Shown here in pieces: positions 6,552-38,592 of a stretch of DNA of 64,000 nucleotides. Source of the DNA: Candidatus Adlerbacteria bacterium (GTDB lineage: Bacteria > Patescibacteriota > Minisyncoccia > Phycocordibacterales > SBAW01); NCBI GenBank assembly GCA_003135635.1, contig PLCJ01000001.1:8836-72835 (forward strand). The letters run 5' to 3'. The position numbers and the translations under genes are program-made. The number at the start of each line of letters is the position of its first letter. The stretch's first letter is position 1. Below the pieces are notes generated by a model. That model saw only the letters and a list, made by a program, of their open reading frames with translations, was not told the origin of the DNA and did no database searches.

Positions 6552-8401
6552 AATTGAATTTCTGTTTGGGGCTCTTCCGATTTCGTCTCTTCTTCTTCTG
6601 TTAGTTCTTTGGGCACAGAAGGAGGAATATCCGCACCAATATCAGAAAGTTCAAATTGGCCCCCAAGGCTATTGACCTCCTCAAACGGAATGACGCCCTT
6701 TACCGCTTTAATGATAGCATCCTCTTTCATCGTGAGCATGCCATCTTTACGTACAATGGAGAACATTTCTTCTTCAGATTTCCTTGCGAGGATGGCGCGT
6801 TCCAATTCCGGCACCATTTCAAAGGCTTCGGATACCGCAATGCGTCCTTTGGTTCCTGTTGGATACTCAAGCGTGGGCTTGATACGATATATTTCCTTAA
6901 GGGCGGGAATCTGATCACGAAATTCCTCTGGCACATCGGCAAATTCATCCTTAATCAGAGCCTCCATGCTGCCTTCAATCGGCATTTTCTGTCCACCTCC
7001 TTGCGGAAGCGTCCGTACGAGACGTTGTGCCATACCCAAAATGAGCACCGGGGGAATAAGATATGGCTCAATTTTCATATCAAGGAGACGCGGCACTATA
7101 CCGATAGCATTGTTGGTGTGTATTGTAGAAAGCACTAAATGGCCAGTGAGTGCAGCCTGCACAGCCAAGTCAGCTGTTTCGGCATCACGAATCTCACCCA
7201 CCATTATGATATTTGGGTCTTGGCGCAAGGTTGTACGCAGTCCGTTGGCAAAGGTATAGCCAATTTCAGGATGAACTTGTGATTGTGAAACCCCAGCAAT
7301 GGTGTATTCAACTGGATCTTCAAGCGAGAGCACATTTTGTCCTTCGCGGTCGATTTCATTGAGAACCGCATACAACGTCGTAGATTTTCCCGATCCAGTA
7401 GGACCAGAGATAAGAACGAGGCCGTAAGGCTTTTTTATAGCAGTACGAATAAGTTTAAGACTGCGGTCTGAAAAACCAAGATTCTCCAGTTTGACTTCTT
7501 GGGCAGACGCGCCAAGAATGCGCATCACCACCTTTTCGCCATAGTAGGTTGGAAAAGTAGAAACACGGAAATCCACCTTATTGCCACCCACCCGTGCAGA
7601 AAAACGGCCGTCCTGAGGCTTCCGTTTTTCATCAAGACGCATATTACAGAGTACTTTGATTCGAGCCACTACCGCTGGATGCACCTTGAGTGGCAACGTA
7701 ATGTTTGTTGAAAGGAACCCATCCACACGAAAGCGTACTCGTGTTTTATCGGCGAGTGGTTCGATATGAATGTCAGATGCTCGCTTCTCAGATGCATGAC
7801 GTAAGATGGTCGCTACAATCTTCGTAATGGGTGCATCAGTGGTGGTAGCATCGCTTGCTGTTTCAGTAATGGTTTCTTCTTGTATCGAAACAGTACGTTT
7901 ATTTTCCTTATCTGTTTTTTTAGTTTCATCAGTGATCTCAACTTCAAGTTCACTGAGAGCCTTCCCCACCTCTCCTGAAAGACCCTTATACTGGCCCATG
8001 ACACGATCAAAATCAGTTTCTGTAATAAGAAACACTTTGTATGGCATTCCTAATTTCGAAGAAATAAAGCTGAGAGCGTCTCGTGCTTCTAAATTGTCTG
8101 GATCAGTAATACCTACCTCAAGCACATTATCTTTGACCGTCAGAGGTACTAGCCCGTAATGTCGAGCAGATTCTTCAGGAATAAGCTGCAAAATATCAAA
8201 GGGTACTTGCTCTTCTCCCACTAAGCGCGTGGGGACAGCATAATATTGTCCTTTGGTCTTTAGGATGTCTTCAAGTGATATCCCCGCCTGGATCAAGAGG
8301 GCTTCTGGGGAGGCACCGGGAGATTTGAGATTCCGTTCTATTTCGGAAACTTTTTTTCGATCAAGTGTACCGTTTTGCAGGAATGTTTGCAGAAGGTCCA
8401 T
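6548..8401 (-). CDS. pilB: Type IV pilus assembly ATPase PilB (GspE family)
   Basis: T2SSE_N domain, Walker A ISGPTGSGKSTTLYAV, DPNIIMVGEIRD, TGHLVLSTIHTNNA; no Cys in the region where the tetracysteine motif usually lies; overlaps pilT start by 4 nt. Confidence 0.92.
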   Translation of the reverse strand: MDLLQTFLQNGTLDRKKVSEIERNLKSPGASPEALLIQAGISLEDILKTKGQYYAVPTRLVGEEQVPFDILQLIPEESARHYGLVPLTVKDNVLEVGITDPDNLEARDALSFISSKLGMPYKVFLITETDFDRVMGQYKGLSGEVGKALSELEVEITDETKKTDKENKRTVSIQEETITETASDATTTDAPITKIVATILRHASEKRASDIHIEPLADKTRVRFRVDGFLSTNITLPLKVHPAVVARIKVLCNMRLDEKRKPQDGRFSARVGGNKVDFRVSTFPTYYGEKVVMRILGASAQEVKLENLGFSDRSLKLIRTAIKKPYGLVLISGPTGSGKSTTLYAVLNEIDREGQNVLSLEDPVEYTIAGVSQSQVHPEIGYTFANGLRTTLRQDPNIIMVGEIRDAETADLAVQAALTGHLVLSTIHTNNAIGIVPRLLDMKIEPYLIPPVLILGMAQRLVRTLPQGGGQKMPIEGSMEALIKDEFADVPEEFRDQIPALKEIYRIKPTLEYPTGTKGRIAVSEAFEMVPELERAILARKSEEEMFSIVRKDGMLTMKEDAIIKAVKGVIPFEEVNSLGGQFELSDIGADIPPSVPKELTEEEETKSEEPQTEIQL

Positions 8402-16619: not shown

Positions 16620-17750
16620 ATGAAATATCACACAAACTACATTCTTGTATCACTAGTTGTTATAGTCTCTTACTTTTCTATCCATAGCACAGCTCTCGCT
16701 CAAAGCGGTACTTCAGAACAAGACTACATTGAGAGAGCAAAAGTGCTTGAAGTGCTCTCCCAAGCGCAAAAAATTATTCCCGGCACCAATACCCAAGCGA
16801 ATTATCAAACGCTCAAAGCTCAGGTACTGGACGGGCCGGACAGCGGAAAAACAGTCACGGTTCAAAACGATTATCTCAATCTCACGCAAGGAGAGGAATT
16901 TTATCTGACCCACGTCATAGATCCACTGGATGGTATCGATGCATACAATGTGTCGCAACCGTACCGTTTACCTACAGTGCTTTTTTTCGTTGGTTTGTTT
17001 GTGCTTGCAGTCATTGTGTTTGGAGGAAAGCAGGGTGTGCGTGGACTCCTCTCTCTTATGGTAAGCATCGCTGCTATTTTCTATGTCCTACTGCCCGGTA
17101 TTTTGAATGGCTATTCACCGATACTTCTGAGTGTGGTGATTTCATCATTCATCGTTACCATGGGCTCCTATATAACGCATGGCTTCAATAGAACAACGAC
17201 CGCTGCTGTGCTGGGTATGATTATTACCATATGTTTTACTGGAGCATTAGCCTACTGGGCGGTACACGCAACGCAACTCTCCGGATATACCACGGAGGAA
17301 TCCACGTACCTTAATTTTGATACCGCAGGAAAAATAGATTTTGTCGGTCTGCTGCTTGGGGGTATCATGATAGGGTTACTTGGAATTTTGTATGACGCTG
17401 CGATAGGGCAAGCGGTGGCTGTCGAGGAATTACGTGCTGCAGCAGAGCACTTCTCGCGAGGGCAGGTATATAAACGTGCACTGCGCATTGGAAAAGAGCA
17501 TATCGGGGCTCTTGTGAATACTCTGGCAATAGCCTATGTGGGAGCGTCTCTCCCGCTGCTTCTGCTTCTGCATTTTTCCAATAGTTCCCTCAGCATAACG
17601 CTCAATCAAGAAATTTTCTCAACTGAAATTGTTCGCACGGTGGTGGGCAGCATCGGACTAGTCCTCGCGGTGCCTATTACTACTCTTATTGCCGTATATA
17701 TATTGTTTAAATGGCCAGTAGAAAGACTGGCTAAAAGTTCCAGTCATTAG
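16620..17750 (+). CDS. YibE/F family membrane protein
   Basis: Signal peptide, extracellular domain then multiple TM helices with YibE/F-like Gly-rich helices. Confidence 0.7.
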   Translation: MKYHTNYILVSLVVIVSYFSIHSTALAQSGTSEQDYIERAKVLEVLSQAQKIIPGTNTQANYQTLKAQVLDGPDSGKTVTVQNDYLNLTQGEEFYLTHVIDPLDGIDAYNVSQPYRLPTVLFFVGLFVLAVIVFGGKQGVRGLLSLMVSIAAIFYVLLPGILNGYSPILLSVVISSFIVTMGSYITHGFNRTTTAAVLGMIITICFTGALAYWAVHATQLSGYTTEESTYLNFDTAGKIDFVGLLLGGIMIGLLGILYDAAIGQAVAVEELRAAAEHFSRGQVYKRALRIGKEHIGALVNTLAIAYVGASLPLLLLLHFSNSSLSITLNQEIFSTEIVRTVVGSIGLVLAVPITTLIAVYILFKWPVERLAKSSSH

Positions 17751-20794: not shown

Positions 20795-21409
20795 CTATTC
20801 TTTATCAGCAAATACCACTAGTCGATCGGAGTAACTTTTCTGAGCCTTATTCCAAACTCCCTGGCACGTGATGAGATTAAGGTGTGCTTTTCCATCGCTT
20901 GAATTAAACACACTTGAGGCATCCTCATTCTGGTCATATGTCCGAACTTCGCGTACCACGAAAGTAGTTATTGTTCCTGTTTCATCTTCAACGTATATTT
21001 TGTCTCCTTTCTGCAATTTATATAAATTATCAAATACCGCTGGTATGCCATTTTTCCAGCCGAAGTGCCCGACAATAACAGCACTACCATTTTCTCCGGG
21101 ACGTGGTCCGAGATCAAACCAGGCTGCGTTAACGGGACCTTCCGGTACCCCCACTGCTCCTTGAGGCGTAAGACCCACAGATTCGAGGGCGGCATCAACA
21201 TTAATCTTTGGAATTTCGAGATGCACTGGCAATCCAGAATTCACTTTTTCTTGTTCATACAGAGCAGAGGTGTTTGCGGCAAGTGCTATCGGGACGTTCT
21301 GAGTCGGGCTTCTTAAGAAAAAAAGGAAAACAAACACTAAAGAAAGCGCAACTCCTGCGAAGGTGATTATTACTAGTGTTCGCCTTAATAAGGTTTTCGA
21401 TATATTCAT
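20795..21409 (-). CDS. Sortase (transpeptidase), membrane anchored
   Basis: N-terminal TM, LEIPKINVDAAL, VGHFGW, catalytic LITC motif; start trimmed to ATG 21409 (MNISKTLL). Confidence 0.85.
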   Translation of the reverse strand: MNISKTLLRRTLVIITFAGVALSLVFVFLFFLRSPTQNVPIALAANTSALYEQEKVNSGLPVHLEIPKINVDAALESVGLTPQGAVGVPEGPVNAAWFDLGPRPGENGSAVIVGHFGWKNGIPAVFDNLYKLQKGDKIYVEDETGTITTFVVREVRTYDQNEDASSVFNSSDGKAHLNLITCQGVWNKAQKSYSDRLVVFADKE

Positions 21410-21512
21410 ACACAACTCAGAAGAGCCAGACCAGCCTTGCTCCTTGGTCTGGCTCTTCTTGCTTACCGGCAGGCAAGGCAAACAATTTTGTTAACTCTCT
21501 TCAAGACTTGGA

Positions 21513-23099
21513 CTACATTGTTAGTTCCTTTCGAGCTAGATAGAACGAGAACAGGGCAAGGAAAATTCCAGTCGGAATGATGATATTCCATGGAGTATTC
21601 CCTTCAGGAGGAAGTCCTGTATTGGGCAAACCAGGAGCAGTTACAGCGACAGTAGCGGGTGAGAAATCGATGGCGGTCAAACCATTGGCACTTCCCTCGG
21701 CCGTGCCGATGTTTGTTGTTGTTTGTGTAAGGTGCGTTTGGCAAGTGAAAGTCCATGTTTCATTACTATCAAGCAGACCATTGTGATTGAGGTCTCCCGG
21801 ATTTCCCAAGACGAGGCCTGGTAGACCGGTACATTTATTGTCAGTAACACTGACATTATTCAGTGGCACTATACCGGGGTTGGTTACCGTGTACGTGTAG
21901 GTAACTGCTCCACCGCCTGCAGGAAGAACAAACACGCTGGGCTTTTTTACTAGGTGGATTAACGGCGGCGTCAATGGCAGTCCAACAACGACAGTTGCGT
22001 TTGCGGTGTCGTACGTGTCCCAACCATTAGCCTGACCATGAGCAGTAGCTGTATTTGTCTGAGTTTGAGAAACTGTTTTAGTACAGTTGTATATCCATGT
22101 TTCAGTTACATCAAGCATTGAGTCATGGTTGGTATCGCCAGATACATATGTTACAGGACTACACATATTGTCCTTGACCCACACACCATGCATTGCAACT
22201 GTGCTTAGATTGGTCGCTGTGTATATGTAAGTAACAGATCCAGGTCCTGAAGGTAAAGCTAAAGGATTTGGTACTTTTATAATGTCAATAAGTGGTAATA
22301 CCGCAAAACTACCGCCACCAGCACCAGGTCCAGATGGTGGGGGAGGAGGAACCACACACGTCGCTTTGATAACGTGAGTATTATTTAATGTAACCGCAGC
22401 ATTTCTTGCCAGAAGTCTTCCGTTGACAGTTGAACCGCCGTTATCTGTGATCGATTGTAAGGCTAGTATATTTCCCTTGAAATCGGAGCCCGTTCCAAGT
22501 GTTGCAGAACTGGTGACTTGCCAAAAGACGTTGCAAGCCTGGGCACCGTTGATCAAGGTTACATGGCTTGCTGATGCTGTGGTTAGCGTGGAGCCCGCTT
22601 GAAAGATGAAGACTGCATTGGGATCGCCACCGGCATCGAGTGTAACCGTTCCGGTGATTGCAAACGAGCTGGGGTCATTGTAAACACCAGGTGTCAGCAC
22701 TGCCCCCCCGAGGTCATGGATCGGACCGTACGTTGTAGTCGGTGTTTGTCCTGCGGCGTTTGTGTAGGCCGCAGTCAGAGAAGTTTGGGCTGCACCCACT
22801 AAGACTGGGTTATTTCCCGCGGCACCTGCAGGACCAGTGGCGTCAACGGCATATATCGTGCCCGTTACTTCTCCTGTAGTTAACACCGGCGTAAGATAAA
22901 AGGTACCTGCGGCTGGACTCAATCCAACATCCCCGCTAATAACAGAGGGAGTAGTGTCCGTAATCGCCGAGCCGGCCAGAACTGCAAAACTATCCGCAGT
23001 GCCAAGACTTACCGTCGTCGCAGCTCTGACTAGCCCAGCCAGACCAAACGTAAACGCAACAGTCAGTACAACTACTGAAACCTTATTAAATATTTTCAT
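21513..23099 (-). CDS. LPXTG-anchored surface protein: N-terminal DUF3494 (ice-binding-like) domain + two DUF11/TIGR01451 repeat domains
   Basis: Signal peptide; LGTADSFAVLAGSAIT...ISGDVGLSP; Pro-rich linker PPPPPSGPGAGGG; C-terminal LPNTG + hydrophobic helix + RKE tail. Confidence 0.85.
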   Translation of the reverse strand: MKIFNKVSVVVLTVAFTFGLAGLVRAATTVSLGTADSFAVLAGSAITDTTPSVISGDVGLSPAAGTFYLTPVLTTGEVTGTIYAVDATGPAGAAGNNPVLVGAAQTSLTAAYTNAAGQTPTTTYGPIHDLGGAVLTPGVYNDPSSFAITGTVTLDAGGDPNAVFIFQAGSTLTTASASHVTLINGAQACNVFWQVTSSATLGTGSDFKGNILALQSITDNGGSTVNGRLLARNAAVTLNNTHVIKATCVVPPPPPSGPGAGGGSFAVLPLIDIIKVPNPLALPSGPGSVTYIYTATNLSTVAMHGVWVKDNMCSPVTYVSGDTNHDSMLDVTETWIYNCTKTVSQTQTNTATAHGQANGWDTYDTANATVVVGLPLTPPLIHLVKKPSVFVLPAGGGAVTYTYTVTNPGIVPLNNVSVTDNKCTGLPGLVLGNPGDLNHNGLLDSNETWTFTCQTHLTQTTTNIGTAEGSANGLTAIDFSPATVAVTAPGLPNTGLPPEGNTPWNIIIPTGIFLALFSFYLARKELTM

Positions 23100-23116
23100 A
23101 TATCTTATTTGTTAAT

Positions 23117-24295
23117 CTAATAATGTGCACTTATATAGCCTCTCGTTATTGGTCCGAAATTTCCCAGAGCTGGGCTAATCCCCACACTCGCTTGAAACTC
23201 AGCCAATGCTGCACGGGTCAGAGCGCCAAAATAAGCAGTCGCGCCAACGTTAGCCAAGGCTTGAGCAGCTGGACCTTTATTTTGGGAAATCAAAAACTGT
23301 TGAAGGATTGTTACATTGTTATTACTCTTGCCTTTTTGAAGATTGACCGCGATCGTTCGAATTTGTTGGCCAGAAGCGGAAGATGCAGTGGCAGTTGCAT
23401 TAGTAGTCGGAACTGTAGATTGCGTAACTGGATAGACATACACATATCCTCCTCCACTACCACCACTGGATGATGAACTAACTGGCACTGTGGAAGTGGG
23501 GGTTGTAGCGGGGGTTGGAGTTGGAGTCATAACCACAGTGGAAGGAATAGTGACAGAATTCGCATTTAATGTAACTGCACTTTGCGCCAACGCTCTACCA
23601 ATTAATTGTGCACCAGTGTTCAGCACAATCGCTGTTTGATCTAATATATTTCCATTAAAGACAGCGGTCGTACCGATGGTCGTTTGACCGGCAACAACCC
23701 AAAAAACATTACCAGCCTGGGCACCGCCAGCAAGAACTATGTTTGTAGCGGAGCTAATACTAAGATTTTGCGCTACCTGAAAAATCCAGACATCATTGGC
23801 ACCACCAGAGAGAGTGACATTTGTTGGTATTGTTACATTAGTACTCCATTTATAGAGCCCAGGAGCGATTGTCAGTCCGCCAATATTTCCCGCTCCAAGT
23901 TCAGTCGCGGTCGGATTTGTCCTTCCAGCGGCATCGACGTACGCGGCTTGCATATCATTGACCGCAGCAGTTACAGTAGCAGGAGTTGGGTTAGCATAAT
24001 CCGGGGCATATATATTTCCAGTTACTAAGGCTGATGTGGAAAATGCACTCGCTGCGGGAAGAATTAACGCAAATCCGGTTATATAACTCGCGGCTGCCGG
24101 ACTGAGTCCAAGATTTCCAACAATGGAGGTGGATCCGGTAGTTGAGATTCCTGTTTTTGCCAGAATCACAAAATTACCTGCCGTTCCAAGATTTACTGCT
24201 GCCGGGCCGGCCGCAAGCGCAGTAATTGGCCCAGCGAGAACAAGCACCGAGGCGGCGGTTAATATAACTACCGAAACCTTATCAAATATTTTCAT
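23117..24295 (-). CDS. Secreted DUF3494 (ice-binding-like) protein with C-terminal peptidoglycan-binding (PG_binding_1-like) domain
   Basis: Paralogous N-terminus (MKIFDKVSVVILT vs MKIFNKVSVVVLT, near-identical DNA around start codons); LGTAGNFVILAKTGIST...VGNLGLSP; C-terminal LQQFLISQ...YFGALTRAALAEFQ. Confidence 0.8.
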   Translation of the reverse strand: MKIFDKVSVVILTAASVLVLAGPITALAAGPAAVNLGTAGNFVILAKTGISTTGSTSIVGNLGLSPAAASYITGFALILPAASAFSTSALVTGNIYAPDYANPTPATVTAAVNDMQAAYVDAAGRTNPTATELGAGNIGGLTIAPGLYKWSTNVTIPTNVTLSGGANDVWIFQVAQNLSISSATNIVLAGGAQAGNVFWVVAGQTTIGTTAVFNGNILDQTAIVLNTGAQLIGRALAQSAVTLNANSVTIPSTVVMTPTPTPATTPTSTVPVSSSSSGGSGGGYVYVYPVTQSTVPTTNATATASSASGQQIRTIAVNLQKGKSNNNVTILQQFLISQNKGPAAQALANVGATAYFGALTRAALAEFQASVGISPALGNFGPITRGYISAHY

Positions 24296-25340: not shown

Positions 25341-25568
25341 TTATTACTTTCGCTCGTGATTATTTGAATAATAGAAATGAGAGATGAGGTTCAAGACCTT
25401 CGTTGCTTTGAGTGTACCATTCTTCGAACATTGCGGTTCGTGACAAATCCCCGCGCTTTTCCGTATCCGCTCCGTTTGATTTTGTCGCTACGCGACGAGA
25501 GTTATTATCTCTCTCCACACGTGCGTCGCGAAGCGGCGCGGCTCTATCTAAACGCGAAGTTTCTATAT

Positions 25569-25656
25569 GCGGAGGCGGAAGGATTCGAACCTTCGGACCA
25601 GTTTCCCGGTCAGCAACTTAGCAGGTTGCTGCTTTCGACCGCTCAGCCACGCCTCC
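25569..25656 (-). tRNA. tRNA-Ser (anticodon GCU)
   Basis: Minus strand GGAGGCGTGGCTGAGCGG...CTGCTAA anticodon loop (GCT), long variable arm GACCGGGAAACTGGTCC, T-arm GAAGGTTCGAATCCTTC, acceptor closed; no encoded CCA. Confidence 0.88.
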
Positions 25657-25747
25657 GTGTTTTATACCCTACACCAAATATACATGACCTGCATTATGTG
25701 TCTGACAGTTGTAGCACAAAAAATATTATTTTCCTGTTCCTTTTATA

Positions 25748-25776
25748 TATGTAAGCATTGAGCGCAGATAAAGCGC
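25748..25776 (+). promoter_or_regulatory. Sigma-70-like promoter upstream of recG
   Basis: TTGAGC-17 nt-TATAAT ending ~8 nt before recG ATG region. Confidence 0.5.
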
Positions 25777-25783
25777 ACGTATA

Positions 25784-27949
25784 ATGGACACGATGCGTAT
25801 AGATGATAGCCTCTCTTCCCACTTCCGGCTTACCGATTCACAAAAAAGTGCCTGCGATACCTTAGGAATCAGAACGGTTCATGATCTTCTTTTTCACTTC
25901 CCTTCTCGTTATGAAGAAGGAGGAAATGAATCGACTATTAGTGGGCTTGCCTCTGGAATGGAAGCCTCCATTATCGGAGTGCTTGAAAAACTAGAAACGA
26001 AAAAATCTTGGAAACGAAAAATTCCGGTATCTGAAGGATATGTATGCGACCAGACCGGTCGCATCAAAGTAATGTGGTTTAACCAGCCCTACATCGCCAA
26101 GATGTATGCCGACGGAGTGCATGTGCGTGCAACCGGTAAGATAACCGGCTCAAGTGGCAAATTGTATTTAGCCAATCCTCATCTTGAGCGTATCTCTCCT
26201 ACTGAAAGCAGCTTATTTGAAAAAAAGACTGCCGACAAAAAAGAAGAGCGCGAACTTTTTGCGATCTATCCGGAAAGTCGTGGCATCACCTCGCTGTGGT
26301 TTCGGCATGCCATCCAAAAGGTGTTGACAAGTGAAATCATGGGCCCCCTGAAGGATCCGATTCCCGCAGATCTGCTCAAGCGCTACAACTTGCCGACGCT
26401 CAAAACCGCACTCGTGTGGGTGCATACGCCACAGCGGCTGAGGGATGCGGAGGCTGCGCGCAAGCGTTTTGCATTTCAGGAAGTATTTTTGATACAGCTT
26501 GAGCTTGGGCGCGAACGTCAAGCACAATTAAAAGAGCAAAGCTTCACCATTGATTCTCCTATAGAGGACATAGAAAGGTTTATGGGTGCGTTCCCTTTCA
26601 AAGCAACCCAAGCGCAAAAGCGAGCGATAAGTACCATCCTTGGTGATATGAAAAGCGGACTCCCGATGTCGCGCTTACTTGAAGGAGATGTGGGGAGTGG
26701 TAAGACCGCAGTTGCTGCAACAGTCGCATATTCGGTAGTGCATACACGCCCCCTAGGACAAAACTATGGAACCCTACAAGCCGCATACATGGCACCCACA
26801 GAGATTTTAGCAAAGCAACATTTTGAATCCTTCATAGCATACTTCAAACAGTTTCCCATCAATATCGGCCTTATCACCGGAAGCGGGTGTTATAAGTTTC
26901 CTTCTAAATTATCGCGAGAAAAAGCAACTCCCATCTCCCGTGCGCAGCTTTTAAAGTGGGTGGCAAATGGTGAGATACCGGTACTCATCGGCACGCACAC
27001 ACTTATTCAAAAATCAGTGCGGTGGAAACATTTGGCACTCGTTATCATCGATGAGCAGCATCGCTTTGGCACCAATCAGCGGCGTCTACTTACGCGCAAA
27101 GAAATACGTCTACCCCATTTACTCTCCATGACCGCAACACCAATCCCCCGAACGCTTGCGCTTACCATATACGGAGACCTAGACCTCACTTTGCTTGACG
27201 AGATGCCTCCGGGACGAAAACCTATTATCACCGAAATCATAAAGCCCGAAGACCGACTAAGAGCGTATGAAAAAATTCGCAAGGAACTACAGGCTGGTCG
27301 TCAAGCGTATATCATTTGTCCGCGCATCGATGAGCCAGATCCTGAAAAAGCATTTGCACTCATTGCAAAGTCAGTGAAAGCAGAGGCAAAACGATTGAAA
27401 AAAGATATATTCCCTGAGTACATCATAGGGATACTTCACGCAAAAATGAAAACCGCTGAAAAAGATGCCGTGATGCGTGCGTTTTCACTACATGAAACAG
27501 ATATCTTGGTTGCAACATCGGTCGTCGAGGTGGGTATCAATATACCAAACGCAACGGTCATCATGATTGAAGGTGCGGAGCGCTTCGGGCTTTCCCAGCT
27601 CCACCAGCTGCGTGGAAGAGTCGTTCGCAGTAACCACCAGGCCTATTGTTTTGTCTGTTCAGAGACCCGCGGGCAGGTGTCACTTACCCGACTCAAAAGT
27701 CTCATCACCGCCAAAAACGGCTTTGAACTTGCTGAACAAGATCTGATGCAGCGAGGACCCGGGGAGCTTTCTGGTCGCAAGCAGTGGGGCATTTCTGACA
27801 TTGGCATGGAAGCACTAAGAAATTTGAAATTGGTTGAAGCCGCCCGTAGTGAAGCTCTAGAGCTCATACAGCATGATGAGAAACTTGCTCACCATCCCCT
27901 CCTTTTGGAGGCACTCAAGCGGCGTCTGGGGGCGATGCATTTGGAATAA
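25784..27949 (+). CDS. recG: ATP-dependent DNA helicase RecG
   Basis: OB-wedge N-terminus, Walker A DVGSGKTAVA, DEQHRFG, helicase C motifs; 721 aa. Confidence 0.92.
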   Translation: MDTMRIDDSLSSHFRLTDSQKSACDTLGIRTVHDLLFHFPSRYEEGGNESTISGLASGMEASIIGVLEKLETKKSWKRKIPVSEGYVCDQTGRIKVMWFNQPYIAKMYADGVHVRATGKITGSSGKLYLANPHLERISPTESSLFEKKTADKKEERELFAIYPESRGITSLWFRHAIQKVLTSEIMGPLKDPIPADLLKRYNLPTLKTALVWVHTPQRLRDAEAARKRFAFQEVFLIQLELGRERQAQLKEQSFTIDSPIEDIERFMGAFPFKATQAQKRAISTILGDMKSGLPMSRLLEGDVGSGKTAVAATVAYSVVHTRPLGQNYGTLQAAYMAPTEILAKQHFESFIAYFKQFPINIGLITGSGCYKFPSKLSREKATPISRAQLLKWVANGEIPVLIGTHTLIQKSVRWKHLALVIIDEQHRFGTNQRRLLTRKEIRLPHLLSMTATPIPRTLALTIYGDLDLTLLDEMPPGRKPIITEIIKPEDRLRAYEKIRKELQAGRQAYIICPRIDEPDPEKAFALIAKSVKAEAKRLKKDIFPEYIIGILHAKMKTAEKDAVMRAFSLHETDILVATSVVEVGINIPNATVIMIEGAERFGLSQLHQLRGRVVRSNHQAYCFVCSETRGQVSLTRLKSLITAKNGFELAEQDLMQRGPGELSGRKQWGISDIGMEALRNLKLVEAARSEALELIQHDEKLAHHPLLLEALKRRLGAMHLE

Positions 27950-27972: not shown

Positions 27973-28044
27973 GCGCGAGTAGCTCAATGGTAGAGCATCC
28001 GTCTTATACACGGACGGCTCCTGGTTCGAGTCCAGGCTCGCGCA
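27973..28044 (+). tRNA. tRNA with anticodon UAU (tRNA-Ile(UAU)-like)
   Basis: GCGCGAG acceptor, D-arm GCTCAATGGTAGAGC, anticodon arm TCCGT-CTTATAC-ACGGA (U33, anticodon TAT, A37), T-arm CCTGGTTCGAGTCCAGG, 3' CTCGCGC+A; followed by CC. Confidence 0.8.
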
Positions 28045-28073
28045 CCGGAGGTTTAGCAGTATACTAATGTCGT

Positions 28074-30008
28074 TTACACAAGCGGCTGATGTTCGATATC
28101 TTCTTTTTTCTTGGGAGTGATGCCGTGAATGATAAGAATTTTTTCGAATTCTTCGCGCTCGAGCGTCTCTACTTCAACAAGTCGCTTGGCGATGGCGTTG
28201 AGTGCCGCACGATGATGGGTGATAATATGTTCTGCTTTTTTATACGCCTCATCGATGATACGGCGCACTTCAGTATCAATTTCTGCAGATATTTTTTCAG
28301 AATGTTCCTTTCCTTCGATACCTCCGCCAAAAAGAGCTCGTCCTCCGTCGCCGGCGAGCGCTATCGTGCCCATTTTCTCACTCATCCCATAGCGGGTCAC
28401 CATATCCCGCGCCAGGGCGGTCAGTATTTGCAGATCATTGGAAGGACCAGTAGTAATATCGCCAAAGACTGTTTTTTCAGCGACGTACCCACCAAGAGAC
28501 ATCGCAATATCATCGAGAAATTCCCGCTTGCTCTGCATTCTTTTGTCTTCAAAGGGAAGCTTCAAGGTATATCCGCCCGTGCGGCCGCGGCTGATGATTG
28601 ATATCTTGTGGACCGGATCGGCATAAGGCAATACCGAAGCCACCAGCGCGTGACCCGCTTCGTGATAGGCGGTAATTTCCTTTTCTTTTTTGTTGAGTAC
28701 GTGGCTTCGTTCGGGACCGAGCATAACCTTTTCGATAGAGCGGATGAGATCGTATTGGGCAATAGTTTTACGGTTTTCCCGTGCGGCTAAAATTGCGGCT
28801 TCGTTCATAAGAGAGGAAAGATCGGCGCCGGAGAAGCCCGGGGTGCGCTCAGCAACAACTGTTAAATTAACATCCTCAGCAAACGGCTTTTTGCGGGAAT
28901 GGATGTTGAGTATATCGAGGCGATCTCTGCGATCAGGCAGATCAATAACCACCCGGCGGTCAAACCGACCCGTGCGTAAAAGTGCGGGATCAAGCACATC
29001 CGGGCGATTAGTCGCTGCCATGACAATGACCTTCTCGTTCGGTTCAAAGCCGTCCATTTCAACAAGAATCTGATTGAGCGTTTGCTCGCGCTCGTCGTTG
29101 CCCCCACCCACTCCCGTGCCGCGTACCCGGCCGACCGCGTCGATTTCATCGACAAAAATAATAGATGGAGCAGCTTTTTTTGCAGTCAAAAAAAGATCGC
29201 GCACCCGGCTTGCACCAACACCCACAAACATCTCCACAAACTCTGAGCCGGAGATGGAGAAAAACGGCACTCCTGCTTCACCGGCAACTGCACGCGCCAA
29301 AAGGGTCTTACCGGTGCCCGGCGCACCCATAAGAAGAATCCCCTTGGGAATGCGCGCTCCGATATCAAGGAATTTTTTCGGATTGCGCAGAAAATCAACC
29401 ACTTCAATCAGTTCTTCTTTTGCTTCCCGCGCACCTGCGACATCTTTAAACGTCACTCGCTGCGATTGGTCATTGGGATCAGTAACCCGCGGGCGGGATT
29501 GGCCGAAAGAGAATACCTGCATACCCGCGCCGCGCATCTGCCTGGAGAGATACCATACGAATACTACAATGAGAAGAATCGGCGCAAGAAAAGGAGCAAG
29601 GCCCGTGAGCCAAAGCTCCCAGGTACTTTCAGACTTTATTGTGAGCATCACTTTACTGAGCGCATCTTTAGACACCCCATAGTTGGCAAGTGTTTGGGAT
29701 AGAGCGGTGCCGGGTTCTTTTTTTGAGAGCTTCTCAGATTTGTCGGTGTATATAACATCGAGATCATCCCCGTTTACCGTTATCGAGGATACCGTACCGG
29801 CGCCAATGTCCGTGGCAAGTTGGGAAATGGGAATAGTTGGTGGTTGCGGCTTTACACTCCCTGTCACGTACGCATAGGCAGTTGCAAGCAGCGCGAGCAC
29901 CAGGATACTTGCGGCGAGGTTAAATAAAAAGCCATTCCGCCGCGGAGCGGGAGGAGGAGAGACCTTTTTTGGCTTTTTGGAGTCCGGCATCGCGGGGCAG
30001 TATATCAT
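28074..30008 (-). CDS. ftsH: ATP-dependent zinc metalloprotease FtsH
   Basis: Two TM, AAA+ Walker [24 protein letters not shown] zinc site; alternative start 29990. Confidence 0.93.
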
Positions 30009-30040: not shown

Positions 30041-30484
30041 ATGACCATCTTGGAGCATAAAAAAGCACGACTCAATTTTGAGCTGCTTGAAGAATTTGAA
30101 GCGGGTATCGAACTATTCGGGTTTGAGGTCAAAGCGTTGCGCGCAAAGCTCGGCAAACTCGATGGGTCGCATGTGATCGTGCGGGGCAAAGAGGGTTACA
30201 TAGTTGGTATGCATATCCCTCCCTACCAGCCCAAAAATACGCCAAAAGAATATGATCCCGATAGAATACGTAAATTACTTCTCACAAAAAAAGAATTAGC
30301 AGTCCTTGCTGGTTTGGAGTCGCAAAAGGGCTTGACAATAGTGCCTATTTCGGTATATACTAAAAACAGGAAATTGAAACTGCGTATCGCAGCTGCGCGC
30401 GGGAGAAAAAGATACGATAAGCGCGAAGTGCTTAAGGCACGCGATGCGAAACGAGAGATGGATCGATCATTGAAAAATCAATAA
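30041..30484 (+). CDS. smpB: SsrA-binding protein SmpB
   Basis: MTILEHKKARLNFELLEEFEAGIELFGFEVKALRAK...; start trimmed to ATG 30041. Confidence 0.9.
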   Translation: MTILEHKKARLNFELLEEFEAGIELFGFEVKALRAKLGKLDGSHVIVRGKEGYIVGMHIPPYQPKNTPKEYDPDRIRKLLLTKKELAVLAGLESQKGLTIVPISVYTKNRKLKLRIAAARGRKRYDKREVLKARDAKREMDRSLKNQ

Positions 30485-30538: not shown

Positions 30539-30915
30539 GGGGATGCATTGTCTAGACAATAGAATCATGTGGTCGGCAGTGCGAAGTAGAAGTCCGGAAC
30601 TTCTCTAACACTCCGGAAAACTATAACTGCCAAATCAGTTAGTTCGCCGTATTTCTCGGCGAATAATTTCGCGTTCGCCTACGCTAAGGCCTAACGCGAC
30701 ACTCGCTGCACAACGCTCGTACGTGCAGGCTTGGGTGTCATAATATCGAGCTGCATTGATAAGAGCGCTTTCTCTTATTAATAAAGATTTAGAGCTTAGA
30801 TACAAAATGGTTTTGTCTGTTTTTTACATTTTGTATCGAAACTATAAATAGACTACGCTTTGTAGAAACACCACCACTTCTCTGTTGCACGCGAGCTCAC
30901 TACTCGCCATCTCCA
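30539..30915 (+). ncRNA. ssrA: tmRNA (ssrA) candidate
   Basis: 5' GGGGAUG... pairs with 3' CAUCUCC-A (G3:U wobble, tRNA-Ala identity); T-arm-like GCGAG-CTCACTA-CTCGC just before acceptor; internal ORF GCC AAA...GCC TAA (30629-30694) with B. subtilis-like ACUGCCAAAUC resume context, proposed tag ending ...ANNFAFAYAKA*; directly downstream of smpB. Confidence 0.6.
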
Positions 30916-30944
30916 CAAATAAAGTTGGAATCACTTGTTTGTGC

Positions 30945-30972
30945 TTGACAAGTTTGTATTATATGCTATGAT
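30945..30972 (+). promoter_or_regulatory. Strong sigma-70-like promoter
   Basis: cTTGACAAGT-16 nt-TATGAT, 30 nt upstream of ORF 31001. Confidence 0.6.
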
Positions 30973-31000
30973 AGCACACGCTAACATTAATTAAACAGCC

Positions 31001-31525
31001 ATGAACAAATTTCGTCATATTTCACAAGCATTTTATGGCATTGCCATTTTGGCAACAATTGTGATAGTTCCACACATGTTGTCCGTACCAGTTGCACATG
31101 CTTATGGAAGCGTTAACTCAACGGCTCCATATCTTTGCTGGAATAATTCTTCCTACTGTTCCCCAGTTGTTATTGATACAACTGGACAGTATGTCACACC
31201 TATTAACGTCGCCGGAACGTGGTCTGCTAATGAAGTTCCTGCAACTTATAATGACGTACCTGTGACAATAAACCTTCCGTCCTCGACTGTTACACCTGTT
31301 GGTGAGAGCCCGATCATTATTCCTCCCACCACCTGTGGGACTTATAATTGCATTCCTTCTCATCAAAATTGTATACGTGGCGTTGACTACATCAATGGCT
31401 GCATTAACTATTGCGGAATCGATAATTGTATTCCTCACAATTATAACTACTGTCTCGCGAGCATTGACGGTTGTGTATGGAATAATCCTTGGAACAATTC
31501 GTGGGTGAACAACTATAACTACTAG
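31001..31525 (+). CDS. Secreted Cys- and Asn-rich small protein (174 aa), unknown function
   Basis: Signal peptide ...VAHAYG; 10 Cys with repeated C-I-P-(S/H) and NxxC motifs; C-terminal WNNPWNNSWVNNYNY. Confidence 0.65.
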   Translation: MNKFRHISQAFYGIAILATIVIVPHMLSVPVAHAYGSVNSTAPYLCWNNSSYCSPVVIDTTGQYVTPINVAGTWSANEVPATYNDVPVTINLPSSTVTPVGESPIIIPPTTCGTYNCIPSHQNCIRGVDYINGCINYCGIDNCIPHNYNYCLASIDGCVWNNPWNNSWVNNYNY

Positions 31526-31705
31526 AATTATTATCCTTTTACTGTTAGTCAAAACTGCCCCTAGGGGTAGTTTTGATTTACAAACGATATATATTCATCG
31601 CACTAGTCACTAAGACAGGTTCTAACTTGGTCAACTCATCTCCACAGATAAAATAGCCTTATTTTATAAGGCTCTATAGAGTCAGATCCTTCGTGCACAC
31701 TACAC

Positions 31706-31733
31706 TTGACAAGTAAGCATTATACGATACAAT
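31706..31733 (+). promoter_or_regulatory. Strong sigma-70-like promoter (same extended -35 as 30945)
   Basis: cTTGACAAGT-16 nt-TACAAT upstream of ORF 31762. Confidence 0.6.
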
Positions 31734-31761
31734 ATAAACCTCAATCTTGGCTTAGAGCTTT

Positions 31762-37209: not shown

Positions 37210-38592
37210 CTACACCTCTATAGTTACCTTCTCTCCGCGCTCTGGCGTCACTGCTTTAACACCGAGGTAATCCCTGATGCGCTGTGCTAAAAATGCCGAT
37301 GAGGCTGGTTCTCCCATAACCACAAATACTTCTTTGAGTGAGGCATTTCCTTTATTGACGAATTCAAGTAGCGCTTCACCATCCATATGGGCCGAGTAGC
37401 CGTAGATGTGTTCAATTTGGCACTTGACGGGCACACTGCGTCCCATGATCTCTACTTTCTTTGCGCCATCAATGAGCCTGCGGCCGAGACTACCGGCTGC
37501 TTGGTAGCCGACAATAAGAAGTGTTGAGGCGGGGTCGGGTAAAATATGCTCTTCGTGACTTATCACTCGGCCGCCATTGCTCATGCCGGAGCCTGCAATA
37601 ATTATTTTTGGGTTAGGTGCCTGCATAAGAGCGCGCGACTGCTCCATATCTTCAATCCACCGCAACTCAGGAAAAGTAAAAATGTTTTCACCCTTCTCAA
37701 TACGTTTTTCAATATTAGGCGCAAAGTAGGAAGGATACGAGAGATAGGCAGTGGTAATTTTTTGGGCCAAGGGTGAATCAAGGTATACCGGCATTGAGGG
37801 GATCTGTTTTTTCAGCATGAGTGTACGGATATCAAAAAGAAGATCTTGTGTGCGTTCAGTTGAAAAAGCGGGGATAAGAAGCGTGCCGCCTCGTCTTACA
37901 GTATTTTCGATAATATTTTCAAGCTCTTGGCAACTATTCCCGTCCTCGTGGCGCACACGATCACCGTACACGCTTTCCATGACGAGATACTGAACCGCGG
38001 GGAGATCTTCCACAAGAGGAAGGAGCGGCGAATTACCACTGCCGAGGTCGCCGGTAAATACGATACTTCTGCCATCACGGGTAAAGCACGCCATAGAAGA
38101 GCCGAGAATATGCCCGGAGCGAAAAAACTCAAAAGAAACACCTCCCCTGAGCGCTTGCTTAGTGTGAAGAGGTACTGTTTCCCACATCTGGAGCGCTTTA
38201 GTAATATCTTCTTTTCCGTAGAACGGTTCTTTACCCTGGCGCTTGGCGCTGTGGAAGAGAAGTTCAAGCGCATCAAAAAGAAGTGGCTCAGCAATAGCTT
38301 TAGTGGGTTCCGTTGAAAGAATCTTGCCCCGAAAACCGTCGTGCACGAGCTTTGGGATTCGGCCGATATGATCGATATGCGCGTGGGTCACGATAAGAAA
38401 AGAGATGTCTTCAGGTTTATACGGAAACGGTTCCCAATTGAGCGCTTCCGTTTCCAAGGTTCCTTGAGTAAGTCCGCAATCAATAAGAAACTTCGCCTCA
38501 CCGATATCAAATAAAAAATTGGAACCCGTGACGAGTCCCGCTCCGCCGCAAAACGTAATCGTTGAGCGCATACTATTTCCATGGTACAGCAA
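37210..38592 (-). CDS. MBL-fold beta-CASP RNA-metabolising hydrolase (RNase J / CPSF-like)
   Basis: HAHIDHIG metallo-beta-lactamase motif, beta-CASP and RMMBL-like C-terminus; alternative start 38571. Confidence 0.8.
   Translation of the reverse strand: MLYHGNSMRSTITFCGGAGLVTGSNFLFDIGEAKFLIDCGLTQGTLETEALNWEPFPYKPEDISFLIVTHAHIDHIGRIPKLVHDGFRGKILSTEPTKAIAEPLLFDALELLFHSAKRQGKEPFYGKEDITKALQMWETVPLHTKQALRGGVSFEFFRSGHILGSSMACFTRDGRSIVFTGDLGSGNSPLLPLVEDLPAVQYLVMESVYGDRVRHEDGNSCQELENIIENTVRRGGTLLIPAFSTERTQDLLFDIRTLMLKKQIPSMPVYLDSPLAQKITTAYLSYPSYFAPNIEKRIEKGENIFTFPELRWIEDMEQSRALMQAPNPKIIIAGSGMSNGGRVISHEEHILPDPASTLLIVGYQAAGSLGRRLIDGAKKVEIMGRSVPVKCQIEHIYGYSAHMDGEALLEFVNKGNASLKEVFVVMGEPASSAFLAQRIRDYLGVKAVTPERGEKVTIEV

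What the first reader, a model, noticed from the sequence alone, without database searches (positions are those of the whole stretch)
27973..28044. tRNA gene with a UAU anticodon
The cloverleaf is canonical (7-bp acceptor, U33, A37, TTCGAGT T-loop) and the anticodon triplet reads TAT. Bacteria normally decode AUA with tRNA-Ile2 (CAU modified to lysidine by TilS). A genomic UAU anticodon is rare (a few Mollicutes, Bifidobacteria, Neorickettsia) and implies a different AUA/AUG discrimination strategy.
Basis: seen in the sequence. Interest (0 to 1): 0.5.

Follow-up and report, generated by a model that had tools for sequence, protein, structure and literature searches.

The report
Isoleucine tRNA reading AUA directly
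This is a genuine transfer RNA gene with a UAU anticodon, which reads the isoleucine codon AUA without the usual lysidine-modified tRNA; textbooks call this rare in bacteria, but it is the standard, conserved arrangement in the ultra-small Patescibacteria (CPR) lineage this DNA comes from.

Summary
ARAGORN and Rfam both call a tRNA at 27973-28044/46 (+) with anticodon TAT at 28005-28007. An alignment of 114 relatives supports the canonical register by covariation and rejects the alternative register that RNAfold prefers.

The window is from a Paceibacterota/Adlerbacteria-like CPR bacterium. The gene lies between recG and ftsH, next to smpB and tmRNA.

It is not a one-off. An almost identical tRNA (same D-arm, CUUAUAC loop, A73) turned up in at least 119 species genomes, nearly all labelled Patescibacteria or unclassified, and in 36 metagenome contigs. 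In 70 of the 72 genome loci that also hold ftsH, it sits just downstream of ftsH.

AUA is common here (17 per 1000 codons, 24% of Ile codons). It aligns with Ile and Val in homologues, not Met.

CAU/A38 tRNAs with the same D-arm exist elsewhere, and two of them lie next to tilS. The CPR form therefore looks like an Ile2-type tRNA carrying U34 and C38.

I found no tilS in 82 kb of the source contig or in any related locus, but whole-genome absence could not be tested.

The kind is known (Mycoplasma mobile, Bifidobacterium, Neorickettsia, and one CPR genome, WWE3). What seems under-reported is the spread across the phylum, the link to ftsH and the C38 signature.

The parts
27973..28044 (+). tRNA-Ile(UAU) gene, positions 1-73. 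ARAGORN extends it to 28046 because CC follows, but CCA is not fully encoded (ACCG).
   Evidence: ARAGORN. Rfam RF00005, 74.3 bits. Cloverleaf supported by covariation in 114 relatives.
28005..28007 (+). Anticodon T34 A35 T36, inside the 7-nt loop CTTATAC (28003-28009), with U33, A37 and an unusual C38.
   Evidence: Sequence. Register fixed by covariation of the anticodon stem: 98.7% paired against 58% for the shifted register. In the scan that left position 38 free, all 17 ftsH-linked UAU tRNAs have C38, while CAU tRNAs with the same D-arm have A38 in 68 of 68 cases.
25784..27949 (+). recG helicase, ending 23 nt before the tRNA on the same strand. The public records call a 718-aa product whose start lies 9 nt downstream of the ORF start.
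   Evidence: Pfam RecG_wedge, DEAD, Helicase_C, RecG_dom3_C. Called gene in L137. recG also neighbours the tRNA in 36 of 119 related genome loci.
28074..30008 (-). ftsH protease, convergent with the tRNA. Its stop codon lies 27 nt beyond the tRNA's CC.
   Evidence: Pfam Peptidase_M41, AAA, FtsH_ext. ftsH shares an 8-kb block with the tRNA in 72 of 119 genome loci, and the tRNA lies downstream of ftsH in 70 of those 72. The link recurs in 17 metagenome loci.
30041..30484 (+). smpB, divergent from ftsH. It occupies the position where tilS lies in Southlakia.
   Evidence: Called gene with PF01668 SmpB in L137 and L138. Coordinates converted from L137.
30539..30918 (+). tmRNA (ssrA), context only.
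   Evidence: Rfam RF00023, 90.9 bits.
25569..25656 (-). tRNA-Ser(GCU), the only other tRNA in the window. It also neighbours the UAU tRNA in 9 related loci.
   Evidence: ARAGORN. Rfam. Tally of tRNAs in related loci.

Best explanation
This is the functional chromosomal gene for a minor isoleucine tRNA with a genomically encoded UAU anticodon (called Ile3 in tRNAscan-SE terms), in a Paceibacterota/Adlerbacteria-like member of the Patescibacteria (CPR).

Shown:
- It has a canonical cloverleaf under purifying selection.
- It belongs to a family conserved across many CPR lineages at a fixed site downstream of ftsH, often between ftsH and recG.
- AUA is a frequent codon in this genome and behaves as an Ile codon, not a Met codon.

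Inferred:
- The transcript is probably made by read-through from recG. The gap is 23 nt and no promoter-like site was found upstream.
- RNase P and 3' processing would trim it, and the CCA-adding enzyme encoded on the same contig would complete the CCA end.
- A37 would be converted to t6A, and IleRS would charge the tRNA with Ile.
- U34-A35-U36 then pairs directly with AUA, so C34-to-lysidine conversion by TilS is not needed.
- The gene most likely replaces the TilS/tRNA-Ile2(CAU) system rather than supplementing it.
- It probably descends from an Ile2(CAU)-type tRNA by a C34-to-U change accompanied by A38-to-C.

Unknown: how AUG misreading through U-G wobble is avoided. Candidates are ribosome-based discrimination as in Mycoplasma mobile, competition from tRNA-Met, a U34 modification, or the unusual C32/C38 loop.
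For: - Real tRNA with anticodon UAU.
- Chromosomal housekeeping context (recG, ftsH, smpB, tmRNA, EF-G, EF-Tu, NusA, RNase Y), with no phage genes or integrase beside it.
- Organism: the best named FtsH relatives are Paceibacterota, Parcubacteria and Adlerbacteria at 80-84% identity.
In the metagenome scan, 36 matches were UAU/C38.
- Synteny: ftsH in 72 of 119 loci with the tRNA downstream in 70 of 72, and recG in 36. Seen again in 17 metagenome loci.
- Isoleucine identity elements as defined for E. coli (Nureki 1994, from my own knowledge): A73 is invariant, C4-G69 occurs in 88 of 110 sequences and C29-G41 in 82 of 110. U12-A23 is also present but was fixed by the search pattern. All four are present in the window's copy.
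- AUA use: 216 AUA against 237 AUG codons, 17.3 per 1000, 24% of AUH, compared with 30-35% A-ending codons in four-fold families.
- AUA meaning: the window's ATA sites align to Ile(ATY) 32%, Val 34% and Met 2% in homologues. Homologues' ATA codons fall on 10% of the window's ATT/ATC sites, 2.9% of GTN sites and 1% of ATG sites.
- Ile2 ancestry: CAU/A38 tRNAs with the same D-arm exist, and two lie directly beside tilS genes.
- Replacement:
  - No PP-loop motif and no TilS homologue in the window, the contig extensions or the 119 related blocks.
  - None in the Pfam lists for contig positions 527-82607.
  - The gene upstream of ftsH is smpB here and an S1-domain protein in many relatives, not tilS as in Southlakia.
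  - The two CAU tRNAs found on the same contig look like an initiator and an elongator Met.
  - The closed CPR genome WWE3 RAAC2 has Ile3-TAT and no Ile2.
- A CCA-adding enzyme gene is on the same contig.
Against: - Absence of tilS and of a third CAU tRNA was tested over only about 82 kb of a genome probably 0.6-1 Mb long. The 8-kb related blocks say something only about linkage to ftsH.
- Co-existence of tRNA-Ile(UAU) with tilS is documented in some Firmicutes (Taniguchi et al.).
- C38 departs from the A38 that belongs to the E. coli IleRS identity set.
- No aminoacylation, modification or expression data exist.
- The codon-alignment test rests on 25 AUA sites in two genes. It gives Ile and Val in similar proportions, so it excludes Met more firmly than it proves Ile.
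- D-arm and loop invariance in the family was imposed by the search pattern.
- Taxon labels on many TPA MAGs are unreliable. Loci labelled 'Saccharibacteria' are as close to the window as loci labelled Adlerbacteria.
Confidence: 0.88

Rival explanations
1. Redundant decoder. The genome also carries tilS and a tRNA-Ile2(CAU) elsewhere, and the UAU tRNA merely supplements AUA decoding. This is the 'intermediate stage' in Taniguchi's evolutionary scheme.
For: Some Firmicutes carry a TAT gene as well as tilS. At least one CPR class, Saccharimonadia (Southlakia), has retained TilS. Only about 82 kb of this genome could be inspected.
Against: There is no TilS in the inspected 82 kb, nor beside ftsH in 44 relatives that have at least 900 bp of sequence upstream. 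Southlakia, which has TilS, has only one annotated tRNA-Ile, the one in the rRNA operon. WWE3, which has the TAT gene, lacks Ile2. The two CAU tRNAs nearby fit initiator and elongator Met. High AUA usage fits a dedicated, efficient decoder.
Confidence: 0.22
2. The anticodon is misplaced. An alternative loop register (loop UAUACAC, nominal anticodon UAC) or an intron means this is not a UAU tRNA.
For: The RNAfold MFE of the single sequence picks the shifted 6-bp stem at -32 kcal/mol.
Against: The shifted register gives A33 and a 2-nt variable loop, which do not fit a tRNA L-shape. Across 110 distinct relatives the shifted stem is 58% paired, against 98.7% for the canonical stem, which covaries at 5 of 5 pairs. 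ARAGORN and Infernal both place the anticodon at TAT.
Confidence: 0.01
3. A phage- or island-borne rare-codon tRNA acquired horizontally, like the tRNA(UAU) genes seen in viral contigs.
For: The same D-arm with UAU occurs in 17 viral contigs. tRNA and tmRNA genes are common integration sites, and GC content dips just past the tmRNA.
Against: The flanks are recG and ftsH, with no integrase or phage genes. The gene order is conserved across dozens of CPR lineages whose FtsH is only 56-84% identical. Local GC is typical of the contig. Most of the viral versions differ: 91 nt with a long variable arm, from Acinetobacter phages.
Confidence: 0.02
4. AUA is reassigned. The tRNA is charged with Met, as in many mitochondria, or with Val.
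For: CPR lineages are known for recoding (UGA in Gracilibacteria and Absconditabacteria; from my own knowledge). Val is as frequent as Ile at the window's AUA sites. tRNA-Val is the most similar other tRNA and is often adjacent.
Against: Met aligns to only 2% of AUA sites, against 52% of AUG sites. Homologues' ATA codons prefer the window's Ile sites 3.5-fold over Val sites. ValRS requires A35-C36 (from my own knowledge), but position 36 here is U. A73, C4-G69, U12-A23 and C29-G41 match Ile determinants.
Confidence: 0.03

Closest known systems
Mycoplasma mobile tRNA-Ile2(UAU) (Taniguchi et al. 2013, PMC3575796)
   Same: A bacterial tRNA with a genomically encoded UAU anticodon that reads AUA without lysidine. 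It has A37 (t6A). It is the only experimentally characterised bacterial example, and its organism lacks tilS.
   Different: In M. mobile, U34 is shown to be unmodified, IleRS carries a specific Arg865, and the ribosome rejects AUG. None of this is known here. M. mobile is a recent, isolated switch within the Tenericutes, whereas the present gene belongs to a family spread over many CPR lineages with conserved synteny. The loop here has C38.
Ile3-TAT of candidate division WWE3 bacterium RAAC2_WWE3_1 (tRNAscan-SE 2.0, File S5, PMC8450103)
   Same: A CPR genome recorded as lacking tRNA-Ile2(CAU) and having tRNA-Ile(UAU) instead. This is the nearest published precedent for this lineage.
   Different: It is a single table entry with no analysis. 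I could not compare the sequences. It is a different CPR class (Katanobacteria/WWE3, against Paceibacteria here).
tRNA-Ile(UAU) of Bifidobacterium adolescentis and Neorickettsia spp.
   Same: A UAU gene present with tilS and Ile2 absent.
   Different: Those organisms have a eukaryote-type IleRS. The IleRS type of this organism could not be examined. They are isolated genera, not a superphylum.
Canonical bacterial tRNA-Ile2(CAU) with TilS (lysidine)
   Same: The same decoding job (AUA). The body is of the same type: CAU/A38 tRNAs with the identical D-arm and an xGGTT variable loop exist, and two lie next to tilS. In B. subtilis (from my own knowledge) and in Southlakia, tilS lies next to ftsH, the same neighbour as here.
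   Different: Position 34 is T, not C, in the gene, so no lysidine is needed or possible. Position 38 is C, not A.
Archaeal (Nanoarchaeum, Korarchaeum) and eukaryotic cytoplasmic tRNA-Ile(UAU)
   Same: A UAU anticodon dedicated to AUA.
   Different: A different domain of life. Eukaryotic U34 and U36 are pseudouridylated (from my own knowledge). No homology is claimed.

Membership tests
tRNA (Rfam RF00005) | Covariance-model score above the gathering threshold | tested here: met
   74.3 bits against 29, E 2e-14, full-length match 1-71. ARAGORN agrees.
tRNA (Rfam RF00005) | Four-helix cloverleaf maintained by compensatory substitutions | tested here: met
   99.3% of 2310 cells paired. 16 of 21 pairs have double-sided changes. 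Covariation score 0.68 against 0.17 in shuffles (0 of 500 reach it) and 0.07-0.11 in slid controls.
tRNA-Ile(UAU) ('Ile3') | Anticodon UAU at positions 34-36 of a 7-nt loop, with U33 and a purine at 37 | tested here: met
   Loop CTTATAC at 28003-28009. The register is confirmed by covariation and the shifted register rejected.
tRNA-Ile(UAU) ('Ile3') | Isoleucine identity elements outside the anticodon: A73, C4-G69, U12-A23, C29-G41 and A38 (E. coli set of Nureki 1994, recalled from my own knowledge) | tested here: inconclusive
   A73, C4-G69, U12-A23 and C29-G41 are present in the window's copy. In the family A73 is invariant, C4-G69 occurs in 88 of 110 and C29-G41 in 82 of 110. A38 is not met: position 38 is C. 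The E. coli rules may not transfer to CPR IleRS.
tRNA-Ile(UAU) ('Ile3') | AUA is translated as isoleucine in the organism | tested here: met
   AUA sites align with Ile and Val; Met accounts for 2%. Homologues' ATA codons fall on 10% of Ile sites, 2.9% of Val sites and 1% of Met sites. This is an indirect test on 25 sites.
tRNA-Ile(UAU) ('Ile3') | Charged with Ile by IleRS; modification state of U34 | not testable with these tools
   This needs biochemistry or tRNA mass spectrometry. The IleRS gene is not in the window: no ORF of 900 aa or more.
TilS-independent AUA decoding (tilS and tRNA-Ile2(CAU) lost) | No tilS and no Ile2-type CAU tRNA anywhere in the genome | tested here: inconclusive
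   None found in contig positions 527-82607. Two CAU tRNAs on the contig look like an initiator and an elongator.
Patescibacterial ftsH-linked tRNA(UAU) family (defined here) | D-arm AGCTCAATGGTAGAGCA, loop CUUAUAC with C38, a 5-nt variable loop ending in T (xGGTT in most members), and A73 | tested here: met
   The window's copy matches all of these; its variable loop is CGGCT, a variant also seen in L077, L088 and L134. C38 is specific to the ftsH-linked UAU set.
Patescibacterial ftsH-linked tRNA(UAU) family (defined here) | Located within about 2 kb downstream of ftsH, often between ftsH and recG | tested here: met
   The window has recG, then the tRNA, then ftsH in convergent orientation, with gaps of 23 and 27 nt. 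Of 72 relatives holding ftsH, the tRNA is downstream in 70: 55 on the same strand and 15 convergent, as here.
Phage or mobile-element rare-codon tRNA | Embedded in phage or integrative-element genes, with patchy distribution | tested here: not met
   The neighbours are housekeeping genes and synteny is conserved across CPR.
tRNA-Ile2(CAU), the lysidine substrate | C34 in the gene | tested here: not met
   T at 28005.

The most novel reading that the evidence does not exclude
Most Patescibacteria outside Saccharimonadia (Paceibacteria, ABY1, Microgenomates, Doudnabacteria, WWE3) decode AUA with an ancient, vertically inherited tRNA-Ile(UAU) that replaced the TilS/tRNA-Ile2(CAU) system. If so:
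- Lysidine-independent AUA decoding is the norm for a large share of bacterial diversity, not a curiosity of a few parasites.
- The family's hallmark C38, paired with C32, is an adaptation for IleRS recognition or for suppressing U34-G wobble on AUG.
- The gene sits beside ftsH, the same neighbour that tilS has in Southlakia and Bacillus, which would reflect an in-situ swap of the AUA-decoding determinant.
Probability: 0.5. Interest if true: 0.6.

Novelty: new member of a known kind. Interest (0 to 1): 0.4.

Why it matters
For this window on its own, the result is an ordinary, correctly recognised gene: the AUA-reading isoleucine tRNA of a CPR bacterium.

The wider pattern it exposes is more useful. 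Papers up to 2026 still describe bacterial tRNA-Ile(UAU) as a rare exception. None of the three full-text searches I ran that paired tilS or lysidine with CPR or Patescibacteria names returned a paper holding both.

Here the gene family appears in at least 119 species genomes, mostly labelled Patescibacteria. It has fixed synteny with ftsH and a distinctive C38.

If tilS is indeed absent from these lineages, three things follow:
- TilS is not near-universal in bacteria.
- TilS-targeted antibacterials or essentiality assumptions would not apply to CPR.
- CPR become a natural system for asking how a ribosome, IleRS or anticodon loop prevents a UAU anticodon from misreading AUG.

Tried and rejected
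1. Alternative anticodon register from the RNAfold MFE. Rejected by covariation.

2. Phage origin.
   - blastn against phage genomes gave only generic tRNA similarity of 77-79% to tRNA-Arg and tRNA-Met.
   - The viral-contig hits are mostly a different 91-nt tRNA from Acinetobacter phages.

3. 'This tRNA body never carries CAU.' My first pattern fixed C38 and returned 136 of 136 UAU. That result was an artefact of the pattern. With position 38 left free, 68 of 121 metagenome matches are CAU/A38, so I withdrew the claim.

4. Looking for tilS.
   - The SGGxDS motif in six frames of the window gave nothing.
   - In the 119 related blocks it gave only two GlyA-like hits.
   - phmmer --max with E. 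coli TilS gave nothing significant; the best E-value was 0.036.
   - Candidate ORFs of 320-420 aa upstream of ftsH in relatives were mostly S1-domain proteins, plus one class I (Trp/Tyr-type) tRNA synthetase and two with no Pfam match; none was TilS.

5. Whole-genome test for tilS or Ile2.
   - The look-up of encoding contigs accepts only window proteins, so the 263-kb contig could be extended by about 10 kb each side.
   - Protein searches list only the best 120 hits, so absence in a clade cannot be shown.

6. Literature.
   - The searches pairing tilS or lysidine with CPR, Patescibacteria, Parcubacteria and similar names found nothing.
   - The Nealsonbacteria supplement has no matching terms.

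7. The first look-up with the RecG ORF failed because the public gene call starts 9 nt downstream.

8. No sigma-70-like promoter or intrinsic terminator was found for the tRNA.

Full report
**Observation**

The sequence at 27973-28044 reads GCGCGAG-TA-GCTC-AATGGTA-GAGC-A-TCCGT-CTTATAC-ACGGA-CGGCT-CCTGG-TTCGAGT-CCAGG-CTCGCGC-A. ARAGORN calls tRNA-Ile(tat) at 27973-28046. Rfam's tRNA model scores 74.3 bits against a gathering score of 29. The anticodon T34 A35 T36 is at 28005-28007, flanked by U33 and A37. The discriminator is A73. The next bases are CC-G, so the 3' CCA is not fully encoded. A CCA-adding enzyme gene (PolyA_pol plus tRNA_NucTran2_2) lies on the same contig, about 10 kb beyond the window.

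**Register check**

RNAfold's minimum-energy fold of the single sequence does prefer a shifted 6-bp anticodon stem with loop UAUACAC. I aligned the window's tRNA with 113 relatives (A1) and counted pairs for both structures.
- Canonical cloverleaf: 99.3% paired, with double-sided changes at 16 of 21 pairs. Its anticodon stem is 98.7% paired and covaries at all five pairs.
- Shifted stem: 58% paired.

The anticodon is UAU.

**Organism and context**

The neighbours are housekeeping genes:
- recG ends 23 nt upstream on the same strand.
- ftsH converges from the other side.
- smpB and tmRNA follow.
- EF-Tu, EF-G, NusA, RNase Y, RecJ, type IV pilus genes, a sortase and ice-binding-like surface proteins fill the rest.

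The exact FtsH is on ENA contig ERZ19973380:c_000000010051 (263,578 bp; window coordinate plus 8867) and in Logan SRR7151668. Its closest named relatives, at 80-84% identity, are from Candidatus Paceibacterota, the Parcubacteria group and Candidatus Adlerbacteria. There is no integrase or phage gene near the tRNA.

**The tRNA belongs to a large family**

I scanned one genome per GTDB species for the D-arm plus CTYATAC. All were UAU. By record title:
- 57 carry CPR names other than Saccharibacteria: 31 Paceibacterota/Parcubacteria-type names (Kaiser-, Taylor-, Adler-, Vogel-, Campbell-, Yonath- and others), 7 ABY1-type (Uhr-, Kerfeld-, Veblen-), 3 Microgenomates-type (Davies-, Collier-), 1 Doudnabacteria, and 15 'Patescibacteria group'.
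- 32 carry the TPA label 'Saccharibacteria'.
- 17 are unclassified.
- 8 are labelled 'Gammaproteobacteria'.
- 1 is labelled Alphaproteobacteria.
- 4 are a different, long-arm tRNA from other phyla.

The TPA labels are unreliable. Loci labelled 'Saccharibacteria', such as L026 and L128, have RecG 67-71% identical to the window's, the same as Adlerbacteria locus L058.

**Synteny**

- ftsH lies in the same 8-kb block in 72 of the 119 loci, and recG in 36.
- The tRNA lies downstream of ftsH in 70 of those 72. It is on the same strand in 55 and convergent in 15, as here.
- tRNA-Val (UAC or GAC) often follows it directly.
- The metagenome scan reproduced the ftsH link in 17 more loci.

This is a vertically inherited chromosomal gene, not a mobile one.

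**A correction to my own first reading**

My first pattern fixed C38, so '0 CAU' was forced by the pattern. With position 38 left free, the metagenome scan gave 68 CAU/A38, 36 UAU/C38, 15 UAU/A38 and 2 UAU/U38.
- All ftsH-linked UAU genes have C38. None of the UAU/A38 genes is ftsH-linked.
- Two of the CAU/A38 tRNAs with the same D-arm sit directly beside tilS genes. One (L262) is next to a full-length TilS (PF01171 plus TilS_C) in a non-CPR contig. The other (L245) is next to a short PP-loop protein inside a phage-like tRNA array.

So this tRNA body is of the Ile2 type. The CPR form differs by U34 and C38. This fits Taniguchi's proposal that TAT genes arise from CAT genes by a C-to-T transition.

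**What AUA means here**

In 29 confident ORFs, AUA occurs 216 times against 237 for AUG. That is 17.3 per 1000 codons and 24% of AUH codons, only mildly below the 30-35% share of A-ending codons in four-fold families.

In alignments of the window's RecG and FtsH with CPR homologues:
- AUA sites correspond to Ile (ATT/ATC) 32%, Val 34%, ATA 8.5%, Leu 7% and Met 2%.
- AUG sites correspond to Met 52%.
- Reciprocally, homologues' ATA codons fall on 10% of the window's ATT/ATC sites, 2.9% of GTN sites and 1% of ATG sites.

AUA is therefore not Met, and it behaves as Ile.

A73, C4-G69, U12-A23 and C29-G41 are E. coli IleRS determinants (Nureki 1994, recalled from my own knowledge). All are present in this gene and predominant in the family. 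A38 is replaced by C.

**Does it replace TilS?**

Evidence for replacement:
- No SGGxDS motif in six frames of the window.
- No TilS homologue by phmmer --max in the window, its extensions or the 119 related blocks.
- No PF01171 among called genes over contig positions 527-82607.
- In Southlakia epibionticum, a true Saccharibacterium with a closed genome, TilS (SEML1_0730) lies immediately upstream of FtsH. That genome has one tRNA-Ile and three 'tRNA-Met' genes, which is the canonical system.
- In the UAU-bearing relatives, the gene upstream of ftsH is often an S1-domain protein. Here it is smpB. It is never a PP-loop protein, in 44 loci with at least 900 bp of upstream sequence.
- The closed CPR genome WWE3 RAAC2 is listed as 'Ile2 missing, presence of Ile3-TAT'.
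- Two CAU tRNAs about 13 kb left of the window look like an initiator (1-72 mismatch, GAGC/GCTC D stem) and an elongator (G4, G5).

Evidence against certainty:
- Only about 82 kb of this genome was visible.
- Co-existence of both systems occurs in some Firmicutes.

I put replacement at about 0.7 and redundancy at about 0.2.

**Mechanism**

Shown: a selected, canonical tRNA with anticodon UAU, in a genome that uses AUA heavily as an Ile-like codon.

Inferred:
- Transcription by read-through from recG, since no promoter-like or terminator-like site was found for the tRNA.
- CCA addition, t6A37 formation and charging by IleRS.
- Direct U34-A pairing with AUA.

Unknown: how U34-G wobble on AUG is avoided. 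In M. mobile, U34 is unmodified and the ribosome itself rejects AUG. The family-specific C32/C38 loop is a candidate contributor here, but that is speculation.

**Comparison and novelty**

The kind is known:
- tRNA-Ile(UAU) in Mycoplasma, Bifidobacterium and Neorickettsia: nine bacterial species known in 2013, and 17 genomes in the tRNAscan-SE 2.0 survey.
- One CPR genome in a supplementary table.

Papers still call it rare. None of the three full-text searches I ran pairing tilS or lysidine with CPR names found a paper holding both.

The gene in this window is a new member of a known kind and ordinary for its lineage. The spread across the phylum, the ftsH linkage and the C38 signature appear to be under-reported. 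They make a testable case that lysidine-independent AUA decoding is widespread.

Noticed in passing
L001, L003-L011, L013-L017 (viral contigs); L072, L084, L103, L129: A 91-nt tRNA with a UAU anticodon, the same D-arm and a variable arm of about 22 nt (AACGACAGATAATCGGCTGATG), so it has a class-II shape. It usually lies directly 3' of a tRNA-Arg(UCU). megablast places it in Acinetobacter baumannii temperate phages, for example PV107591.1, where it is annotated tRNA-Ile. Similar long-arm UAU tRNAs occur in Verrucomicrobiae, Proteobacteria and Acidobacteriota MAGs.
   Followed up: partly
L245:944-1694: A phage-like array of 11 tRNA genes contains a tRNA(CAU) followed about 25 nt later by a short (216 aa) PP-loop TilS-like gene. 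This would be a mobile 'tRNA-Ile2 plus its modifier' cassette.
   Followed up: partly
L232:1893-5746: A metagenome contig has MurJ then FtsH (55% identical to the window's FtsH), the same order as in Southlakia. Two tRNA(CAU) genes lie immediately upstream of ftsH where Southlakia has tilS. So tRNA or enzyme genes that serve AUA/AUG decoding cluster around ftsH in several arrangements.
   Followed up: partly
L141:16785-16857 and 17552-17626 (same contig, about 13 kb left of the window): Two tRNA(CAU) genes. One is initiator-like, with an A1-A72 mismatch and a GAGC/GCTC D stem. The other is elongator-like (GCCGGGG...), with an A31-A39 mismatch at the top of the anticodon stem.
   Followed up: partly
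window 25377-25754 (+): A 125-aa ORF called as a gene in the public records (L137:14255-14632, no Pfam match) overlaps tRNA-Ser(GCU) at 25569-25656 on the opposite strand. It is probably a spurious gene call.
   Followed up: no
window 30908-31734: The last 11 nt of the tmRNA plus the next 5 nt (CATCTCCACAAATAAA, 30908-30923) recur 729 nt downstream at 31637-31652. A promoter-like 30-mer (CTTGACAAGT...TATGATA, 30944-30973) recurs at 31705-31734. Together they bracket a 174-aa hypothetical ORF, and GC falls to 42-43% over 30-36 kb. This may be a small insertion or duplication at the tmRNA 3' end.
   Followed up: no
window 37210-38592 (-): A beta-CASP metallo-beta-lactamase ribonuclease. Its best NCBIfam matches are the Cas14-type MBL/CASP model (414 bits, cutoff 800) and archaeal aCPSF1 (298 bits, cutoff 580). 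This is an archaeal-like RNase in a CPR genome.
   Followed up: no
window 21513-24295 (-) and 20795-21481 (-): Two tandem ice-binding-like (PF11999) proteins, one with a peptidoglycan-binding domain, lie next to a sortase. They are probably sortase-anchored surface proteins.
   Followed up: no
L040:6486-6558 and 6594-6668: One genome, labelled Saccharibacteria, carries two tandem tRNA(UAU) genes 36 nt apart. The second has a different D-arm and acceptor stem but the same CTTATAC loop.
   Followed up: no
L018-L136 record titles: NCBI taxon labels on many TPA_asm MAGs ('uncultured Candidatus Saccharibacteria', 'uncultured Gammaproteobacteria') do not fit their gene content. Several are as close to the window's RecG and FtsH as Adlerbacteria are.
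   Followed up: partly
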